Shown piece after piece: positions 787 to 23,762 of a DNA stretch of 26,097 nucleotides (within the stretch, counting starts at the first letter, position 1; every line of letters starts with the position of its first letter). A model generated the notes under the pieces. The model did not search any database, was not told the DNA's origin, and saw only the letters and a program-made list of their open reading frames with translations. Source of the stretch: a virus; the UHGV virus genome UHGV-0386553; one strand, written 5' to 3'. A program made the translations under genes and the position numbers.

Positions 787-803
787 ATTACCTTTCAGGT
801 AAT
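787..803. promoter_or_regulatory. Operator-like inverted repeat, copy 1 (ATTACC-TTTCA-GGTAAT)
   Basis: Perfect 6-5-6 inverted repeat, about 90 nt upstream of the ORF starting at 879. One of five related copies in the window. Confidence 0.55.
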
Positions 804-839: not shown

Positions 840-859
840 TACTGTATAAATATACAGTT
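840..859 (+). promoter_or_regulatory. LexA (SOS) box
   Basis: tACTGTATAAATATACAGtt is CTGT-N8-ACAG and matches the E. coli LexA consensus TACTGTATATATATACAGTA at 18 of 20 positions. It lies 20 nt upstream of the ATG at 879, overlapping the likely promoter. Confidence 0.7.
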
Positions 860-878
860 ATTGCATGGAGAAGATAAG

Positions 879-1136
879 ATGCAGCAGTATCACTATCCAC
901 TGGAAGACGGATTTACCGAAAGGATTCACACGCCGGGAGGCGTCAGGTCACTGGTGGAGGGATCGCACTTGATGAAATTACTCCGGGATCTCGATAAGGA
1001 TGGATTTAATGTCGATGGCCCACTTGCCGAACTGACTGCACTGATTAACTACGTCACCAGCTCACAGATGTCTATGCGGGATCTGCAAACACATCTCGAC
1101 TATTGTGCCGAACAATTACGAAAGCAAACCACATAA
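879..1136 (+). CDS. Small protein (85 aa) homologous to the C-terminal domain of the Bro-N protein; candidate SOS-controlled antirepressor
   Basis: ATG at 879 with GGAG 8 nt upstream. The track ORF 756..1136 is shortened because the LexA box lies inside the longer frame. Product MQQYHYPLEDGFTERIHTPGGVRSLVEGSHLMKLLRDLDKDGFNVDGPLAELT...RDLQTH aligns by eye with residues about 150-220 of the Bro-N protein (roughly 40 percent identity). Confidence 0.6.
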   Translation: MQQYHYPLEDGFTERIHTPGGVRSLVEGSHLMKLLRDLDKDGFNVDGPLAELTALINYVTSSQMSMRDLQTHLDYCAEQLRKQTT

Positions 1137-1158
1137 AGAAAAGGCCGCAAGAGCGGCC
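1133..1158 (-). terminator. Intrinsic terminator for the leftward two-gene operon
   Basis: GGCCGC-AAGA-GCGGCC perfect 6-bp stem at 1143-1158; on the minus strand it is followed by TTTTCTTT. It sits between the convergent genes 879..1136 and 1160..1666. Confidence 0.55.
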
Positions 1159-1159
1159 A

Positions 1160-1666
1160 TTAACAGTCGAAAAATTCTGGGTCCCACAAACTTGCATCGC
1201 GCGGCATGGATTCTAACTTTTTCAGCCGCAAAATTCTGTCACACTCGACAACTAATTTTTGCTTCTGCTCGTCAATTTCTACTGTCTTATGTGCTGGTTC
1301 ATCCCAATAATCCAGAAGGAAGGCATGGCGTTCAGATGTGACCAGATAAATCACATACACGTCACTGGTTGGGATCTTTTTATGCTTGTTAGTGGTCTTG
1401 TCTTTCTTCCCAGACGCCCAGTTTTTCCAGCATTGTTCCGTACCGCTCTCACCAAACTTGTCAGTATAGTTTCCGATGTTTACATGAACGTGGCGTATGT
1501 GATATTCCAGCATCTCTTTCGGTGGATCCCGAAACAGAGTGTCCTTTCCGAAATCCTTATGATGACCGTAGCGCCAGTGATCTATGAACGCGTTTTTGAT
1601 AGGTATTAGCTCAGGGTCCTTCCCAAAAATTCCAGGGTGAACCAACCCCTGGAATTTATTCGGCAT
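1160..1666 (-). CDS. YafO-like toxin-domain protein (168 aa); putative toxin
   Basis: Track ORF 1160..1729; preferred start is the ATG at 1664-1666 (GGAG 10 nt upstream), which overlaps the last codons of the upstream gene. Motifs FGKDTLFRD, HIRHVHVNIGN and YVIYLVTSERHAFLLDYWDEPAHK recall E. coli YafO (FGRDALYDD, AHIHLAN, HLVYCQGAFDEQAWLLIAILKPEPHK). Comparison is from memory. Confidence 0.55.
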   Translation of the reverse strand: MPNKFQGLVHPGIFGKDPELIPIKNAFIDHWRYGHHKDFGKDTLFRDPPKEMLEYHIRHVHVNIGNYTDKFGESGTEQCWKNWASGKKDKTTNKHKKIPTSDVYVIYLVTSERHAFLLDYWDEPAHKTVEIDEQKQKLVVECDRILRLKKLESMPRDASLWDPEFFDC

Positions 1667-2183
1667 CGTCGTAGAGCTCCTGAGCCATATCTTCAGCAGT
1701 GCGTGCAAACATCCTGCGCGAGATTGCATGGGATTTCTCTACGGACATCTTTGGGACCTCATACATAACAAGTTGATGAGTTTTCTCATCAACTTGAAGT
1801 GGCTTGTATAAACGTTGCCACCTTTCGTTAATTTTATCCTTAAAGCCAGCGAAACCACTTTCCTGACTCTTGTATCCAAAATGAGATAAAGCCAAATTCC
1901 TTTCCATTTCATTCCTAATGTACTCAGCAAGGTTGCAGTGGAATACTTCCCCTTGTTTTTTTAGGCATGCTTCATGGTCTGTAACACTGTGACGGCTCTC
2001 ATATAAGTAAATGCGATAGGAATTTTTATTATCCTCTTCTTCATAATTTCTAATCGCATCAGCAGTTGCCATAGCTGCAGCGTAAGCGGCTGCTTCAATC
2101 ACCATCTCTTGCTCTTTTTCTTTTTCAGGCCTTTTCAAGGCAAAGCGTCTATGCCTCATCGCTGTAACTCTCTTCGTGTTCAT
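1656..2183 (-). CDS. Hypothetical protein (175 aa), basic N-terminus and acidic C-terminus; putative partner or antitoxin of the downstream YafO-like gene
   Basis: Track ORF 1656..2195 starts at TTG; the ATG at 2181-2183 gives MNTKRVTAMRH... Its 3' end overlaps the downstream start (ATGCCGAATAA). The C-terminus is acidic (ELYDDAE). No family recognised. Confidence 0.55.
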   Translation of the reverse strand: MNTKRVTAMRHRRFALKRPEKEKEQEMVIEAAAYAAAMATADAIRNYEEEDNKNSYRIYLYESRHSVTDHEACLKKQGEVFHCNLAEYIRNEMERNLALSHFGYKSQESGFAGFKDKINERWQRLYKPLQVDEKTHQLVMYEVPKMSVEKSHAISRRMFARTAEDMAQELYDDAE

Positions 2184-2195
2184 GGGCACCCCCAA

Positions 2196-2210
2196 CTACC
2201 TTTAGGGTAA
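2196..2210. promoter_or_regulatory. Operator-like inverted repeat, copy 5, degenerate (CTACC-TTTAG-GGTAA)
   Basis: Lies between the predicted -10 and the start codon of the leftward operon. Confidence 0.4.
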
Positions 2211-2212
2211 AC

Positions 2213-2242
2213 ATTCTATCGAAAGTATACGCTCACTGGCAA
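2213..2242 (-). promoter_or_regulatory. Sigma70-like promoter of the two-gene operon
   Basis: Minus-strand reading: TTGCCA (2242-2237), 18-nt spacer, TAGAAT (2218-2213), about 30 nt upstream of the ATG at 2183. Confidence 0.45.
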
Positions 2243-2319
2243 AAAAATAGGCAGGTATTTTCTGAAATGGGATCAATCAAACCACATAGGGTTGAAATGA
2301 CGTGAGTTATGCATTTATT

Positions 2320-2369: not shown

Positions 2370-2391
2370 GGGCACTGGCAAAATCCAGTGC
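2370..2391. promoter_or_regulatory. Perfect 8-bp-stem hairpin (GGCACTGG-CAAAAT-CCAGTGCC) of unknown role
   Basis: Seen directly; it has no flanking T-tract on either strand, so it is not a typical terminator. The motif CACTGGCAAAA recurs at 2233-2243. Confidence 0.35.
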
Positions 2392-2602
2392 CGGGATTGG
2401 CGTTCCGGATTACTACAGAGGCACATATGCCGCATAAGCGGTTTTTTTATGTGTAAAGCGCACCTATTCTATGGTGGGCTGTGTGGGGGCACCGAAAGGT
2501 GCGCCGGGTTCCTTTGTAGCCGGTTACGCCAACCCTGCACAGTTCACCACCAACCGATTGGCGTCGGTAGTGGTGATTAACCTAACTACAAAGGTGATCA
2601 CT

Positions 2603-3289
2603 ATGACTGCTAACGTAACCCCATCTGTTTTTCATTTTGAATCAGAAGCAACCATTCGAGCCATTGTTATTGATGGAAATCCTTGGTTTGTTGCCAAAGA
2701 CGTTATTAAAGCTCTTCAACTGACAAACCCCACTATGTCAATAAAATCTCTTGATGATGATGAAAGGGCTAAATTTAACTTAGGCCGTCAAGGCGAAACC
2801 AATATTATCAACGAGTCAGGCCTCTACACACTGATCCTCCGCTGCCGCGACGCAGTGACACCAGGCACTATCCCCTACCGCTTTCGTAAATGGGTTACAG
2901 GTGAGGTTCTTCCTCAGATCCGTCGCACCGGAAGTTACATTAAAAACTCGCTCCCGCAGGAAGAACGCATAAAGATGGTTGCCGACCAGGTAGCCAACGC
3001 CACGGCGTCAGCAGTAATGCAGGCGATGAAGATAGAGAACAAAACCTACAGCGCCCCGCTGAAGCCCGGCTACCGCAGCCTGATTCATTCGCCGTCTGGT
3101 GTTCTCGGCCTGACGGAGAACTCACTGCTGATGAATCTGCTGAACCAGTTACAGGAAGACGGGCACGACGTATCGGGCGCGGCGGCGGAGCTGACCACCA
3201 TGTTCTGTTACATCGTTGGTGTGAGCAAATGCCTGCGTGATATCCAGACGCACGCGGAGTACATCAACGACAAGGCAGGGTTCTTCTGA
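2603..3289 (+). CDS. Bro-N domain protein (228 aa), antirepressor-like
   Basis: ATG at 2603 with AAGGTG RBS; the track ORF starts at 2471 but the upstream part is GC-rich leader. N-terminus VFHFESEATIRAIVIDGNPWFVAKDVIKALQL...NESGLYTLILRCR matches the Bro-N signature (F.F....R.....G..WF.A.DV...L; NESGLY.LIL). The C-terminal domain is paralogous to the product of 879..1136. Confidence 0.7.
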   Translation: MTANVTPSVFHFESEATIRAIVIDGNPWFVAKDVIKALQLTNPTMSIKSLDDDERAKFNLGRQGETNIINESGLYTLILRCRDAVTPGTIPYRFRKWVTGEVLPQIRRTGSYIKNSLPQEERIKMVADQVANATASAVMQAMKIENKTYSAPLKPGYRSLIHSPSGVLGLTENSLLMNLLNQLQEDGHDVSGAAAELTTMFCYIVGVSKCLRDIQTHAEYINDKAGFF

Positions 3290-3332: not shown

Positions 3333-3361
3333 TTGCAGACTGTGGGTGAATAGCGTACTAT
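3333..3361 (+). promoter_or_regulatory. Sigma70-like promoter of the 55-aa / 147-aa cassette
   Basis: TTGCAG (3333-3338), 17-nt spacer, TACTAT (3356-3361); operator copy 3 starts at the end of the -10. Confidence 0.45.
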
Positions 3362-3376
3362 TACCTTAAAGGTAAA
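3360..3376. promoter_or_regulatory. Operator-like inverted repeat, copy 3 (ATTACC-TTAAA-GGTAAA)
   Basis: Overlaps the -10/+1 region and abuts the AGGAGG RBS of the ORF starting at 3388. Confidence 0.55.
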
Positions 3377-3387
3377 GGAGGCGCGAT

Positions 3388-3555
3388 ATGACAGCGTTGA
3401 AAAATCGTACTCAGCACAATGAACAAGCCAAGCAATGCTGGGATGTCATTGGAAAAGTTATGCTTGGCCGCGCAAGCAAAGAGCGCGACAAGGATATGGT
3501 TTACCAGACAGGAACATCTTTCAGCGACTTCAAGGCGGCATTTCGCTCCAAATAG
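3388..3555 (+). CDS. Small hypothetical protein (55 aa)
   Basis: ATG at 3388 preceded by AAGGAGG at optimal spacing; manual translation MTALKNRTQHNEQAKQCWDVIGKVMLGRASKERDKDMVYQTGTSFSDFKAAFRSK, stop TAG at 3553-3555. Below the size cut-off of the ORF track. Confidence 0.45.
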   Translation: MTALKNRTQHNEQAKQCWDVIGKVMLGRASKERDKDMVYQTGTSFSDFKAAFRSK

Positions 3556-3575
3556 AAGCACATCAGGAGTTTTCC

Positions 3576-4016
3576 TTGAAGTTTAACATTAGAATATCTA
3601 ATAGTTTTCTACATGGGGAAAGCAACACCCCTTTCGCTGTAGACGGACCTTTCCTTACTGATGATGAAATAAAAATCATACAAAGTTTTTTAGAGGATGT
3701 TGCCAATGGAAGGGCGCTTGTTGGAAAAAACAAGCCCTCGTGGGTTGATGATAACCATGATAAAATTCCCGGCTCAGACAATTATGAGCAAGAGAATTAT
3801 TGGCATTATCATTGTGGGCCAACATGGTATCCAAACACATTTAAGAATTATACCATTAACTTAAATTTCAACCCTGGCGGAAGGCATTCTAATGAATGCA
3901 TTCATTATGCAAAAAATGATAATGAAATTGTCATTGTTGGATTTTCAAGAGAACACATACCTTTCCTTTCATCAGATGGAAACAACAATCCGCTTTTTAA
4001 TGATGAAGAAGAATAG
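3576..4016 (+). CDS. Hypothetical protein (about 146 aa), AT-rich
   Basis: Track ORF 3435..4016 overlaps the 55-aa ORF in another frame. Preferred start is TTG at 3576 with AGGAG 7 nt upstream; no in-frame ATG exists. A strong terminator follows. Sequence ...WHYHCGPTWYPNTFKNY...; no family recognised. Confidence 0.45.
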   Translation: MKFNIRISNSFLHGESNTPFAVDGPFLTDDEIKIIQSFLEDVANGRALVGKNKPSWVDDNHDKIPGSDNYEQENYWHYHCGPTWYPNTFKNYTINLNFNPGGRHSNECIHYAKNDNEIVIVGFSREHIPFLSSDGNNNPLFNDEEE

Positions 4017-4038
4017 CCCGCGCTGCGGGCTTTTTTGT
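4016..4038 (+). terminator. Rho-independent terminator
   Basis: GCCCGC-GCT-GCGGGC stem followed by TTTTTTGT, immediately after the stop at 4014-4016. Confidence 0.75.
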
Positions 4039-4108
4039 GGGCGAAACAAAAGTCAGTGCTACACTCATTGACGCCACATTGAGGTGGCTTATAGATGGAA
4101 ATTTCACA

Positions 4109-4270
4109 ATGAAAAAAGCATTTGCTGCACTGTTCGTTTTGTTGTCTCTGGTAGCTTCAACTCAGGCCTTTGCCGGTCGTTGTCAGCACGACAGCGACAC
4201 TGCTGCTGACGGCTCCCGCTGCGGTGGGCGTTCTGCGGATTCCCGCCCTGGCGGCGGTGGCATTCGTTAA
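4109..4270 (+). CDS. Small predicted secreted peptide (53 aa; signal peptide plus about 31-aa Gly/Cys-containing mature part)
   Basis: Track ORF 4037..4270 begins inside the terminator T-tract. The ATG at 4109 gives MKKAFAALFVLLSLVASTQAFA followed by GRCQHDSDTAADGSRCGGRSADSRPGGGGIR; a terminator hairpin follows. Possible promoter TTGACG (4068-4073)-N16-TATAGA. Weak RBS. Confidence 0.3.
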   Translation: MKKAFAALFVLLSLVASTQAFAGRCQHDSDTAADGSRCGGRSADSRPGGGGIR

Positions 4271-4276
4271 AAACAA

Positions 4277-4300
4277 GGCCGCGAAAGCGGCCTGTTTGAT
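4277..4300. terminator. Hairpin terminator between convergent genes
   Basis: GGCCGC-GAAA-GCGGCC perfect stem (4277-4292) followed by TGTTTGAT on the plus strand and preceded by AAAACAA; lies between the ORF ending at 4270 (+) and the ORF ending at 4300 (-). Confidence 0.6.
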
Positions 4301-5151
4301 CACTGTGCAGTTTTCGCTGATCGATTTTCAGCTCTAAATTCAAGAACCGTTTCAATATTTCTTTCCTTCAGCATATCAATAACATTTTTATTCATTTGAC
4401 TATCACTGGTTAATAACTGGTAAACGTTGCTTCTCTCTTTATCAGAGTTTTCTTTAACAGCTGCTTTGCATGCCAAATGCTTATTGAAATTTTCTACATC
4501 GCTAGTACAGGAATTTACGGCTGCTGATGAAATATCAGACGCTGAAGAAACACCATCATCCAAACGTTTTATAGCATTTTCTATACATGAGTTAAGGGAA
4601 TAAACGACAACTGAGCGATACCCTTCAGACGCACACCATTCTAAATTTCTTGAAGGATCGAGTGGTTTTACTTCGCTGGATTGAATTAACTTGTCAAAAA
4701 CTGACTTATATTCAATCTGTTTTTTATCTATAGCCCATACTTCAGTAGCTGATTTATAATTCCCCGTATGCCTATTAACATCAAATCCATGTTTTATAAG
4801 CAAATCTGCCCATGAAAGATTTATTGATTCATTGTTATGAGGCCATTTTCCTGTCAGAACCGCCCCCATAGACCCCATATATCCGCCATATGATGGTATA
4901 GCACCATGGCTCAGTAACTTCTCAGCAACCACAGGGCAATTAATTACATAAGAGGCGTAAAGCCCATTCCATAAAGCCCCTCTATAGTAATCGCCACGAT
5001 TAGGTTCTTTTAAGTCGATAGCCTTTGATAATTGTTCACACGTTTTGCATGCATCAAAGTTATCCTTATTGCATTGCAATGAACTGGCAGCTGTAGGATT
5101 TACAGAGACTATTGAAAGCACTATGCCAAAAAACAAATTTATTTTTTTCAT
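4300..5151 (-). CDS. Secreted or periplasmic protein (283 aa) with N-terminal Sec signal peptide; possible ankyrin-like repeats
   Basis: N-terminus MKKINLFFGIVLSIVSVNPTAASS is a typical signal peptide. Its ATG lies 1 nt after the stop of the 1129-aa gene (TAGGATG). AT-rich compared with the structural genes. Segments LLSHGA.. and ADLLIKHGFDVN loosely resemble ankyrin repeats (weak). Confidence 0.65.
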   Translation of the reverse strand: MKKINLFFGIVLSIVSVNPTAASSLQCNKDNFDACKTCEQLSKAIDLKEPNRGDYYRGALWNGLYASYVINCPVVAEKLLSHGAIPSYGGYMGSMGAVLTGKWPHNNESINLSWADLLIKHGFDVNRHTGNYKSATEVWAIDKKQIEYKSVFDKLIQSSEVKPLDPSRNLEWCASEGYRSVVVYSLNSCIENAIKRLDDGVSSASDISSAAVNSCTSDVENFNKHLACKAAVKENSDKERSNVYQLLTSDSQMNKNVIDMLKERNIETVLEFRAENRSAKTAQ

Positions 5152-20594: not shown

Positions 20595-20611
20595 ATTACC
20601 CTTCAGGTAAG
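20595..20611. promoter_or_regulatory. Operator-like inverted repeat, copy 4 (ATTACC-CTTCA-GGTAAG)
   Basis: 16 nt downstream of a consensus -35 TTGACA (20574-20579); faces the rightward tRNA / Gp49-like unit. Confidence 0.5.
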
Positions 20612-20932: not shown

Positions 20933-20933
20933 G

Positions 20934-21009
20934 TGGCATTAGCTCAGTTGGACAGAGCAACCGCCTTCTAAGAGGTTGGTCGCAGGTTCGAATCCTGCAT
21001 GCCACGCCA
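20934..21009 (+). tRNA. tRNA-Arg (anticodon UCU, reads AGA)
   Basis: Manual cloverleaf: acceptor GTGGCAT/ATGCCAC, D-arm GCTC-AGTTGGACA-GAGC, anticodon loop CTTCTAA (U33, anticodon TCT, A37), T-arm GCAGG-TTCGAAT-CCTGC, discriminator G, encoded CCA. One G-A mismatch in the anticodon stem. Resembles E. coli argU. Confidence 0.8.
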
Positions 21010-23130: not shown

Positions 23131-23723
23131 TGATTGCCATCCTGACGTTCTTTCAGTCTCTTCCTGGCTGCCGCTATGCGATCAGCAATTGTCACATTCA
23201 CATTAACATCCAGACGTTCTTTGAACGCGTTGACATCAACATGCTTACCAATCAGCTCAAGGTTCTTCACCTTGTCAGGCCATTTAATTTTTTTGAGGAT
23301 TGTCTCTATCGAATCCTCGTTCATGTTCATGATGGTCGATGACAGATCAAAGCCACTAAGCGTAGTGCGCCAGATTTTCGGCCACTCACGGATTGGTTTA
23401 AGGCTCCCATCGTCGTTGAGGATATCGATCACGTCCATCTGGTCGATCTCCACCAGGCGCATGAGAACGTAATCAGCACTGACGCGCATTCGTTTGTTGC
23501 GCTCCTCCATCAACTCGGCAATCCGTTTTTGAATGCGTTCATCGCGCATCATGACACTGGCTTTAACTGCCGCTGTATTTGGGGAGAATCCTGCGTTAAT
23601 CGCTGCCTGAGTCTGGTTTTCAGGCGTTTTGATGTATGACTGGCAATAAGCCTCCTGCATTGCTGTTAGTGGCTTAAATTGCGTTGATTTGCGTTTATAG
23701 GTTTTAGGTTCAGCAGGCATCAT
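23127..23723 (-). CDS. Terminase small subunit, P27-type (about 198 aa from the Met-Met start)
   Basis: Track ORF 23127..23801; preferred start is MMPAEPKTYKRK... at 23721-23723 because the upstream in-frame codons are tandem DNA repeats. N-terminal region LTAMQEAYCQSYIKTPENQTQAAINAGFSPNTAAVKAS is the typical small-terminase HTH signature. Confidence 0.7.
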   Translation of the reverse strand: MMPAEPKTYKRKSTQFKPLTAMQEAYCQSYIKTPENQTQAAINAGFSPNTAAVKASVMMRDERIQKRIAELMEERNKRMRVSADYVLMRLVEIDQMDVIDILNDDGSLKPIREWPKIWRTTLSGFDLSSTIMNMNEDSIETILKKIKWPDKVKNLELIGKHVDVNAFKERLDVNVNVTIADRIAAARKRLKERQDGNQ

Positions 23724-23730
23724 AACCACC

Positions 23731-23762
23731 GTGGTAATAGTTACCGTTGTGGTAATAGTACC
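23731..23762. repeat. Tandem direct repeat GTGGTAATAGT(T)ACC x2, each containing the palindrome GGTAA-N3-TTACC
   Basis: Seen directly, just upstream of the terminase small-subunit start. Confidence 0.5.

What the first reader, a model, noticed from the sequence alone, without database searches (positions are those of the whole stretch)
1160..2242. Overlapping two-gene operon: unrecognised 175-aa protein plus a YafO-like toxin homologue
Gene A (2183-1656) and gene B (1666-1160) overlap by 11 nt (ATGCCGAATAA), typical of toxin-antitoxin pairs. Gene B carries three YafO-like blocks (FGKDTLFRD; HIRHVHVNIGN; YVIYLVTSERHAFLLDYWDEPAHK) with an extra N-terminal region and a 35-aa insertion. Gene A is not a YafN/Phd-like antitoxin: it is 175 aa, basic at the N-terminus, acidic at the C-terminus and matches no family I recognise. 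The pair has its own promoter (TTGCCA-N18-TAGAAT) with an operator-like palindrome and its own terminator. Chromosomal yafO is SOS-controlled, and this pair sits next to a LexA-box gene. It may be a non-canonical toxin-antitoxin or abortive-infection module.
Basis: partly seen in the sequence, partly recalled or inferred. Interest (0 to 1): 0.8.

Follow-up and report, generated by a model that had tools for sequence, protein, structure and literature searches.

The report
Prophage toxin-antitoxin pair, new antitoxin
A 1.2-kb two-gene insert in an E. coli phiV10-like prophage most likely encodes an RNA-cutting toxin of the YafO/RelE kind and a previously undescribed antitoxin, and its promoter carries the prophage's own operator rather than a private one.

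Summary
Gene A (2183..1656) and gene B (1666..1160) overlap by 11 nt. The promoter is TTGCCA-N18-TAGAAT, a palindrome follows it, and there is a strong terminator.

Gene A has no known family and only 25 relatives among 1.84 billion representative proteins. It has a basic MxTK[KR] N-terminus, a hypervariable, poorly folded middle, and a conserved acidic C-terminal ~35 aa ending ELYDDAE. That C-terminus diverges in step with the toxin, so it is the likely neutralising module (inferred, not shown).

The pair is a 1178-bp insert (1137-2314) in the antirepressor region of a phiV10-like prophage integrated next to guaA. Its palindrome belongs to a family, TTACC-N5-GGTAA, found at about 15 sites across the prophage, including both sides of the repressor gene, and in phiV10, which lacks the pair. 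So the operon is probably controlled by a prophage regulator, not by LexA or by gene A.

I rate it a new variant of a known kind, of moderate interest. Toxicity, neutralisation and any role in phage defence are untested.

The parts
1137..2314 (-). Whole inserted cassette: terminator, gene B, gene A, operator, promoter and about 70 bp of upstream DNA.
   Evidence: Relative to phiV10, window 249-1136 matches L009 3250-4137 and window 2315-3299 matches L009 4163-5140. So 1178 bp here replace about 25 bp there.
1133..1158 (-). Intrinsic terminator of the operon: GGCCGC-TCTT-GCGGCC followed by TTTTCTTT.
   Evidence: Terminator scan. RNA fold -13.5 kcal/mol, z = -3.71, and 0 of 200 shuffles fold as well.
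1160..1666 (-). Gene B, 168 aa: a long-form YafO-family toxin with a RelE/HigB-type fold, presumed to be a ribosome-dependent mRNA endonuclease.
1656..2183 (-). Gene A, 175 aa: presumed antitoxin of an undescribed family.
   Evidence: It overlaps gene B by 11 nt. It has no Pfam or NCBIfam hit and matches phrog_9503, of unknown function. It has only 25 relatives among 1.84 billion representative proteins. The AlphaFold2 model is poor, with pLDDT 59.7 and pTM 0.20.
1659..1769 (-). Conserved C-terminal module of gene A (residues 139-175, VMYEVPKMSVEKSHAISRRMFARTAEDMAQELYDDAE): the presumed toxin-binding and neutralising part.
   Evidence: It is nearly invariant across A variants whose other parts are unrelated. 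Two predicted helices, 148-159 and 163-172, carry the best pLDDT in the model, about 80. Its identity between loci tracks toxin identity, with Spearman 0.87, against 0.43 for the rest of A. A diverged form...ELSFRMLNSLEDRMKEEEFDAFE, accompanies the 170-aa toxin clade.
1770..2150 (-). Hypervariable middle of gene A (residues about 12-138).
   Evidence: Homology to phage EC.W1-9 breaks exactly at 1770 and resumes at 2151. In E. coli genomes with toxins 97-99% identical, this part is only 29-44% identical. Of the 58 E. coli genomes that carry the cassette, 43 have a different middle.
2151..2183 (-). Conserved basic N-terminal tail of gene A (MNTKRVTAMRH). The motif M-x-T-K-[KR] recurs in most variants.
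   Evidence: Alignment A6. The pI of residues 1-30 is 10.4. Its function is unknown.
2189..2193 (-). Ribosome-binding site GGGGG, 5 nt upstream of the gene A ATG.
   Evidence: Read directly from the sequence.
2196..2210 (.). Operator CTACCTTTAGGGTAA, a 1-mismatch copy of the palindrome TTACC-N5-GGTAA. It lies 3 nt downstream of the -10 hexamer, over the expected transcription start.
   Evidence: The window has 7 sites against 0.35 expected. phiV10 has 14 against 0.77 expected, including sites on both sides of its repressor gene. In the complete prophage of strain GN02461, 15 of 16 sites lie inside the prophage. A site lies 13-150 nt upstream of gene A in every cassette examined.
2213..2242 (-). 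Sigma-70-type promoter TTGCCA-N18-TAGAAT.
   Evidence: Promoter scan, 10 of 12 consensus positions. The sequence is conserved in other E. coli copies of the cassette.

Best explanation
Window 1137-2314 is a two-gene accessory insert (a 'moron') in the antirepressor region of a phiV10/epsilon15-like (Uetakevirus) prophage integrated next to guaA. It is a toxin-antitoxin-type operon read on the minus strand: promoter, operator, gene A, gene B, terminator.

Gene B (shown): it has a RelE/HigB-type fold and is a remote relative of YafO. Inferred: it is a ribosome-dependent mRNA endonuclease that arrests translation. The residues it shares with YafO (G40, D42, R58, H61, Y107, H126) are candidates for the active site.

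Gene A (shown): it is always immediately upstream of gene B and overlaps it. Its last ~35 residues are conserved and diverge in step with the toxin, while the rest of the protein is freely replaced and is predicted to be poorly folded. Inferred: the acidic C-terminal helical hairpin ending in ELYDDAE binds and blocks the toxin, as the disordered tails of RelB, YefM or HigA2 do.

Regulation: gene A has no recognisable DNA-binding domain. Shown: its promoter carries, over the expected start site, one copy of a 15-bp palindrome (TTACC-N5-GGTAA). That palindrome lies in most intergenic (presumed promoter) regions of the prophage, including both sides of the repressor gene, and in phiV10, which lacks the pair. 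Inferred: transcription is set by a prophage regulator, most likely the main HTH repressor. On that reading the operon is low or silent in a stable lysogen and comes on at derepression or on fresh infection.

The biological purpose is not determined. Candidates are host translation shut-off during lytic growth, killing of cells in which the lytic programme is derailed, and exclusion of competing phages.
For: - Anatomy.
- YafO link: BLASTP E 0.002 and hhalign E 0.003 over 110 columns. PF13957 is hit by 11 of 15 homologues, and four (P0047, P0046, P0005, P0057) reach the 25-bit cut-off. RefSeq uses the same name.
- Conserved synteny: an upstream partner overlaps the toxin gene by 11-14 nt in Klebsiella, Salmonella, Serratia and Yersinia.
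- Modular antitoxin.
- Disorder of gene A, with confident C-terminal helices.
- Operator family, and its presence in phiV10 and across the complete prophage.
- Insert boundaries.
Against: - The window protein itself does not reach any threshold for PF13957 or NCBIfam.
- The hhalign probability against E. coli YafO is only 10%.
- No complex could be modelled, so the binding of A to B is inferred only from gene order and co-divergence. The pairwise identities used are not independent.
- Which protein binds the palindrome is unknown.
- An operon repressed in the lysogen is unusual for a prophage accessory insert, and its purpose is unexplained.
- No known defence-system model matches gene B, and gene A gave only three weak PADLOC matches (E 0.001-0.003) that I read as chance.
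Confidence: 0.68

Rival explanations
1. It is a conventional self-regulated type II toxin-antitoxin module. Gene A, through its basic N-terminus, or the A-B complex, binds the palindrome at its own promoter. The operon is expressed in the lysogen and acts as an abortive-infection or stabilisation device.
For: The palindrome accompanies every cassette examined, across five genera. Gene A has a conserved basic N-terminal tail. The cassette sits in a hotspot that elsewhere holds HicAB-like and SocA/Panacea pairs.
Against: The same palindrome occurs 14 times in phiV10, which has no gene A or B, and it flanks the repressor gene. So another protein must bind it. No DNA-binding fold or family was found in gene A. 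Gene B has no PADLOC match, and gene A has only three weak ones (E 0.001-0.003) that I read as chance.
Confidence: 0.17
2. Gene B is a RelE-fold protein that has lost nuclease activity or has another role, for example as a ribosome-binding or regulatory factor in the lysis-lysogeny switch next to the antirepressor. Gene A is then a partner or chaperone rather than an antitoxin.
For: Sequence similarity to YafO is marginal for the window protein. The pair sits among antirepressor control elements: the isrK and C4 RNAs, the Bro-N gene and a LexA-box gene. The catalytic residues of YafO are not defined structurally, since no structure is in the PDB.
Against: A set of His and Arg residues (H30, R32, H35, H36, R58, H61, R113, H126) is invariant or nearly so across 41 family members. 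That fits an active RNase better than a decayed one. The tightly overlapping genes and the co-diverging C-terminus of A are the standard signature of a toxin-antitoxin pair.
Confidence: 0.1
3. The ORFs are chance reading frames or decayed pseudogenes with no function.
For: None beyond the absence of curated family hits for the window proteins.
Against: Both proteins are conserved at full length in many genomes and genera. The cassette is present in 58 of 5426 complete E. coli genomes and in phage EC.W1-9. The gene B model is confident, and the promoter and terminator are intact.
Confidence: 0.01

Closest known systems
E. coli YafN-YafO (the dinB operon type II toxin-antitoxin system; Pfam PF13957 YafO_toxin)
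   Same: The toxin shares the blocks FG[KR]D.L[FY], R..H[IV]H and P.HK, and an upstream antitoxin gene overlaps it. By homology, it probably cleaves mRNA in a ribosome-dependent way (YafO biology from PMC7781912 and PMC7180214).
   Different: - The toxin is 168 aa against 132 aa, with an internal insertion of about 22 aa and about 19 extra C-terminal residues.
- The window protein falls below the Pfam threshold.
- The antitoxin is unrelated to YafN/Phd (hhalign probability 0.1%).
- It is not in the dinB operon and has no LexA box.
- It is carried by a prophage. The 2011 census found YafO neither on phages nor on plasmids (PMC3141249).
Vibrio cholerae HigB2-HigA2 and other RelE/HigB toxins (PDB 5mje, 5jaa, 7nbu, 6af3)
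   Different: Sequence identity is only 7-16%. Gene B is about 55 residues longer. HigA2 has an HTH DNA-binding domain and its neutralising segment is N-terminal. Gene A has no HTH domain and its conserved segment is C-terminal.
paaR2-paaA2-parE2 of E. coli O157 prophages (a toxin-antitoxin system with a separate regulator)
   Different: Here no dedicated regulator gene sits in the cassette. The promoter appears to borrow the prophage-wide operator instead. The toxin is of the YafO/HigB type rather than ParE, and there is no sequence similarity between the antitoxins.
Scattered-operator immunity systems such as the phage P1 C1 repressor, with its immI c4-ant module
   Same: One operator sequence is distributed over many transcription units of the prophage. 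An adjacent antirepressor is controlled by a C4-type antisense RNA (RF01695 at 2467-2554).
   Different: The operator sequence is different and palindromic. Its binder in phiV10-like phages has not been identified. A toxin-antitoxin operon belonging to such a regulon has not been described, as far as my searches show.

Membership tests
YafO toxin family (Pfam PF13957) | The protein scores at or above the Pfam gathering threshold of 25 bits. | tested here: not met
   The window protein and P0001 (98% identical) give no hit even at E <= 10. Relatives P0047 (about 60% identical, 35.8 bits) and P0046 (about 50% identical, 33.3 bits) do pass, so membership is only transitive.
YafO toxin family (Pfam PF13957) | Detectable homology to E. 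coli YafO itself. | tested here: inconclusive
   BLASTP gives E 0.002 over 54 residues at 31% identity. hhalign gives E 0.003 over 110 columns but a probability of only 10%. The three motif blocks align in the same order.
YafO toxin family (Pfam PF13957) | The toxin is paired with a Phd/YefM-type antitoxin (YafN). | tested here: not met
   Gene A has no Pfam hit. hhalign of the gene A family against YafN gives a probability of 0.1%.
YafO toxin family (Pfam PF13957) | Ribosome-dependent mRNA cleavage 11-13 nt downstream of the start codon. | not testable with these tools
   This is a biochemical property, described for YafO in PMC7781912.
RelE/ParE (HigB-like) toxin superfamily | The characteristic alpha/beta RelE fold. 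| tested here: met
RelE/ParE (HigB-like) toxin superfamily | Catalytic His, Arg and Tyr residues positioned at the RNA-binding face. | tested here: inconclusive
   H30, H36, R58, H61, Y107, R113 and H126 are invariant in 41 family members. Their spatial equivalence to RelE or HigB catalytic residues was not checked, because no model coordinates were available.
Type II toxin-antitoxin system | Two small co-transcribed genes, with the antitoxin upstream and translationally coupled to the toxin. | tested here: met
   The genes overlap by 11 nt and share one promoter and one terminator. The same arrangement, with 11-14 nt overlaps, occurs in five genera.
Type II toxin-antitoxin system | The antitoxin protein binds and neutralises the toxin. 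| not testable with these tools
   Support is indirect only. The C-terminal 35 aa of A diverge in step with B.
Type II toxin-antitoxin system | The antitoxin carries a DNA-binding domain and autoregulates the operon. | tested here: not met
   No DNA-binding family or fold was detected in gene A. The promoter palindrome belongs to a prophage-wide family that is also present in phiV10, which has no gene A.
Known anti-phage defence systems (PADLOC-DB 2.0) | A match to a model of a described defence protein. | tested here: not met
   Gene B has no hit. Gene A has only three chance-level hits, with E 0.001-0.003 and 15-16 bits, to unrelated models.

The most novel reading that the evidence does not exclude
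The hypervariable middle of the antitoxin may be a sensor, not a spacer. On this reading the pair is a prophage-wired abortive-infection or competition device. The conserved C-terminal hairpin holds a YafO-type RNase in check. The swappable middle, 29-44% identical between cassettes whose toxins are 97-99% identical, recognises different triggers, such as proteins of rival phages or satellites. The whole operon is gated by the prophage repressor, so it is armed only when the prophage is derepressed. Some prophages carry two insulated paralogous cassettes flanking the antirepressor, which would broaden the range of triggers.
Probability: 0.15. Interest if true: 0.8.

Novelty: new variant of a known kind. 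Interest (0 to 1): 0.5.

Why it matters
YafO is one of the least understood ribosome-dependent toxins. No structure of it is in the PDB, and the 2011 census found only 25 members, none on phages or plasmids (PMC3141249).

This pair adds three things:
- It shows a phage-borne, longer YafO lineage with a confident RelE/HigB-type model.
- It defines a new antitoxin family with a compact C-terminal motif ending in ELYDDAE. That motif could be tested directly as a minimal YafO-type inhibitor.
- It gives an example of a toxin-antitoxin operon that seems to have handed its transcriptional control to the prophage's own operator network.

If confirmed, that control would tie toxin expression to the lysis-lysogeny switch. 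The mosaic antitoxin, with constant ends and a swapped middle, also offers a tractable case for asking what drives antitoxin diversification.

Tried and rejected
- AFDB Foldseek, to compare with the AlphaFold model of YafO: the library was not available.
- BFVD viral structures: no significant match for gene B.
- Sequence profiles of A and B against PDB sequences: chance-level hits only.
- YafO against PDB sequences: no structure exists.
- NCBIfam and PADLOC: no usable hits.
- YafN against the gene A family: no relationship. An apparent resemblance of the acidic C-termini (DM...F/Y-D-D) is therefore not counted as evidence.
- The second small gene pair at 3388-4016 as a possible paralogous toxin: hhalign probability 0.2%, so rejected.
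- SOS control of the pair: rejected, because there is no LexA box near 2196-2260.
- The 12-bp hairpin inside gene A as a quasipalindrome correction: the one comparison strain had the same sequence, so this is unresolved.
- Literature: four searches found no paper on this pair or on toxin-antitoxin modules of Uetakevirus prophages.

Full report
**1. What is in the sequence**

On the minus strand, gene A runs 2183..1656 (175 aa) and gene B runs 1666..1160 (168 aa). They overlap by the 11 nt ATGCCGAATAA. The longer in-frame ORF from 1729 is not used, because all homologues start at the MPNK/MLNK position.

- Upstream is the best sigma-70-type match in the region: TTGCCA (2242-2237), an 18-nt spacer, then TAGAAT (2218-2213).
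- A GGGGG ribosome-binding site lies 5 nt before the ATG.
- Directly after the gene B stop codon is a six-GC-pair hairpin with a T-run at 1158-1133. It folds at -13.5 kcal/mol, and none of 200 shuffles fold as well.
- The operator-like palindrome is TACCCTAAAGGTA at 2197-2209.
- The LexA-box neighbour is real. CTGTATAAATATACAG at 842-857 sits just upstream of the 85-aa gene 879..1136 on the plus strand.

Two descriptive details are not. Compared with E. coli YafO, gene B has no N-terminal extension, because the first shared block starts at residue 39 against residue 38. The internal insertion is about 22 aa, with about 19 further residues at the C-terminus.

**2. Where the pair sits**

The window is a phiV10/epsilon15-like (Uetakevirus) prophage. 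An identical copy of the cassette lies in a complete ~39.5-kb prophage next to guaA in E. coli GN02461.

Compared with phiV10, window 1137-2314 (1178 bp) replaces about 25 bp between the epsilon15p19-like gene and the Bro-N antirepressor promoter. So the pair is a discrete accessory insert with its own promoter and terminator.

Immediately to its right, Rfam finds an isrK sRNA (2372-2448, 71 bits) and a C4 antisense RNA (2467-2554, 84 bits) ahead of the Bro-N/Ant gene. This is an immI-like antirepressor control region.

The cassette is found in 58 of 5426 complete E. coli genomes, always on the chromosome, and in phage EC.W1-9.

**3. Gene B**

The window protein hits nothing in Pfam, NCBIfam or PADLOC and matches only phrog_1651, of unknown function. 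The link to YafO is nevertheless real, though remote:
- Of 15 homologues, 11 hit PF13957. P0047 scores 35.8 bits and P0046 scores 33.3 bits, against a gathering score of 25.
- BLASTP against E. coli YafO gives E 0.002.
- hhalign gives E 0.003 over 110 columns, but a probability of only 10%.
- RefSeq already calls this protein and its relatives 'type II toxin-antitoxin system YafO family toxin'.

All 40 or so full-length relatives are 166-175 aa long, so they form a distinct long clade.

Invariant His and Arg residues (H30, H36, R58, H61, R113, H126) fit an active RNase. R58, H61, Y107 and H126 line up with residues of YafO.

**4. Gene A**

Gene A has no Pfam or NCBIfam family, matches phrog_9503 (unknown function), and has no relative with a solved structure. 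An exhaustive HMM search of 1.84 billion representative proteins returns only 25 proteins.

Aligning these reveals a three-part architecture:
- a short basic N-terminus, usually M-x-T-K-[KR];
- a middle of 60-130 residues that is so variable that several versions are unalignable;
- a conserved C-terminal ~35 residues, [IV]P.M[ST]...ALS.RM[FY]....[ED][ED]M..ELYDDAE.

AlphaFold2 gives a poor model overall (pLDDT 59.7, pTM 0.20). The best-supported elements are a long helix at 20-54 and two C-terminal helices at 148-159 and 163-172. That pattern is typical of antitoxins that fold on their toxin.

In the 170-aa toxin clade (Salmonella, Serratia, Yersinia, and a second cassette in some E. coli), the upstream gene encodes 105-113 aa. 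It overlaps the toxin gene by 14 nt and ends in ...ELSFRMLNSLEDRMKEEEFDAFE, a diverged form of the same motif.

Over eight A/B pairs, identity of the C-terminal 35 aa tracks toxin identity (Spearman 0.87), while the rest of A does so only weakly (0.43). These pairwise values are not independent, so the coefficient is descriptive only.

Within E. coli the contrast is stark. Toxins are 97-99% identical, the A C-terminus is 97% identical and the promoter is nearly identical, but the rest of A is only 29-44% identical. The homology break with phage EC.W1-9 falls exactly at 1770 and 2151.

I infer that the C-terminal hairpin is the toxin-binding, neutralising module. Gene A is unrelated to YafN.

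**5. Regulation**

The palindrome at the gene A promoter is not private. Relaxed to TTACC-N5-GGTAA, it occurs 7 times in the window against 0.35 expected. It occurs 14 times in phiV10 against 0.77 expected. It occurs 16 times in the 49-kb GN02461 locus, and 15 of those lie inside the prophage.

In both complete phage genomes, two sites lie between the HTH repressor gene and the divergent cro-like gene, and two lie just beyond the other end of the repressor gene. Others lie in the intergenic regions upstream of the Bro-N/ant gene, the LexA-box gene, and the replication, lysis and integrase genes.

phiV10 lacks genes A and B, so the binder cannot be gene A. The main prophage repressor is the most economical candidate, but this is an inference. 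A paper on the related phage ZX5 shows that this repressor shuts off lytic transcription, but it defines no operator (PMC9782041).

At the gene A promoter the site starts 3 nt after the -10 hexamer, over the expected start point. At the divergent ant promoter (TTGAAA-N18-TATTAT, 2292-2321) a second copy at 2321-2335 is placed the same way.

Every cassette examined in the five genera has such a site 13-150 nt upstream of its gene A.

No LexA box lies at the pair's promoter. The suggested SOS link is at most indirect, through derepression of the prophage by the LexA-controlled neighbour.

**6. Most likely mechanism**

This is a toxin-antitoxin-type operon whose toxin is a RelE/HigB-fold, YafO-family, probably ribosome-dependent mRNA endonuclease. 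The antitoxin neutralises it through a short acidic C-terminal hairpin. The promoter is controlled by the prophage's operator network rather than by the antitoxin.

| Status | Points |
|---|---|
| Inferred | Nuclease activity, A-B binding, identity of the operator-binding protein, repression in the lysogen |
| Unknown | What the module is for |

A repressor-gated toxin could serve host shut-off during lytic growth, killing of cells whose induction is derailed, or competition with other phages. I could not discriminate between these.

**7. Comparison with what is known**

It works like YafNO and HigBA-type modules. It fails the strict family tests for YafO at the level of the window protein, and it clearly fails the YafN-partner and dinB-operon features.

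The 2011 census of type II systems lists YafO as a small superfamily of 25 members. Its partners there were Phd or unclassified antitoxins, and it was not seen on phages or plasmids (PMC3141249). Reviews note that YafO was set apart from RelE for lack of structural data (PMC7180214).

The nearest conceptual parallel for an antitoxin without a DNA-binding domain and with an external regulator is the prophage paaR2-paaA2-parE2 system (from my own knowledge).

Four literature searches found nothing on this pair.

**8. Verdict**

This is a real, conserved prophage operon. The toxin identification is already in RefSeq. What is new is the antitoxin family, its modular and mosaic structure, and its apparent wiring to the prophage operator. 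I rate it a new variant of a known kind, with interest 0.5.

Noticed in passing
window 788-802, 2196-2210, 2321-2335, 3361-3375, 20596-20610, 23723-23737, 23741-23755; also L017 (phiV10) and L018: A 15-bp palindrome, TTACC-N5-GGTAA, is scattered over most intergenic (presumed promoter) regions of phiV10-like prophages. phiV10 has 14 sites against 0.8 expected, and in strain GN02461 15 of 16 sites lie inside the prophage. Pairs of sites lie on both sides of the HTH repressor gene. This looks like the undescribed operator of the prophage's main repressor.
   Followed up: partly
window 2372-2448 (+) and 2467-2554 (+): Rfam finds an isrK Hfq-binding sRNA (71 bits) and a C4 antisense RNA (84 bits) in the leader of the Bro-N/Ant gene. 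This is an immI-like antirepressor control region next to the cassette. The N-terminal part of ORF 2471..3289, and its Pfam 'Ash' hit, overlap the C4 RNA. The real Ant start is probably the ATG at 2603.
   Followed up: partly
window 842-857 and 879-1136 (+): A perfect LexA box, CTGTATAAATATACAG, lies just upstream of an 85-aa epsilon15p19-like gene (phrog_450). This protein resembles the C-terminal part of the neighbouring Ant protein. It is probably a LexA-controlled small antirepressor, convergent with gene B and sharing its terminator region.
   Followed up: partly
L019 3650-4017 and L020 3754-4089 (E. coli IMT16316 and Combat2C1): Some E. coli prophages carry a second, paralogous cassette on the other side of the antirepressor gene. 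It has a 108-aa antitoxin-like gene ending ...EISFRQLNSLETHMKEEEFDVFE and a 170-aa YafO-family toxin, and it has its own copy of the operator.
   Followed up: partly
window 3388-3555 and 3576-4016 (+), with the operator at 3361-3375: At the position where other prophages hold the second YafO-type cassette, this window has a 55-aa ORF followed by a 146-aa ORF (phrog_5954, unknown function). There is no detectable relationship to gene B (hhalign probability 0.2%). This may be another small two-gene accessory insert.
   Followed up: partly
window 1769-1796 (-): A perfect 12-bp-stem hairpin, CAAGTTGATGAG-AAAA-CTCATCAACTTG, lies inside gene A (codons 130-139), exactly at the junction between the variable middle and the conserved C-terminal module. 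It is found only in this variant of gene A. Its meaning is unknown.
   Followed up: partly
window 20933-21009 (+): A tRNA-Arg gene (anticodon TCT) is carried by the prophage between the portal and terminase region genes.
   Followed up: no
window 4037-4270 (+) and 4300-5151 (-): Two further accessory ORFs have N-termini that look like signal peptides (MKKAFAALFVLLSLVASTQAFA and MKKINLFFGIVLSIVSVNPTAASS). The larger one is phrog_6118, of unknown function.
   Followed up: no
L008 906-1364; L014 1335-2227; L011 4557-4940: The same prophage region in Klebsiella, Serratia and Salmonella carries other small modules: a DUF1902/HicA pair, a SocA_Panacea pair and a Rap1a-like gene. This suggests a hotspot for toxin-antitoxin, immunity or defence cargo next to the antirepressor.
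   Followed up: no
protein P0040: A gene A variant with an unrelated N-terminal part is recorded on a contig of exactly 26097 bases, the same length as this window. Its sequence is not encoded here, since only its C-terminal 57 residues match (at 1659-1814). The equal length is unexplained and may be coincidence.
   Followed up: partly
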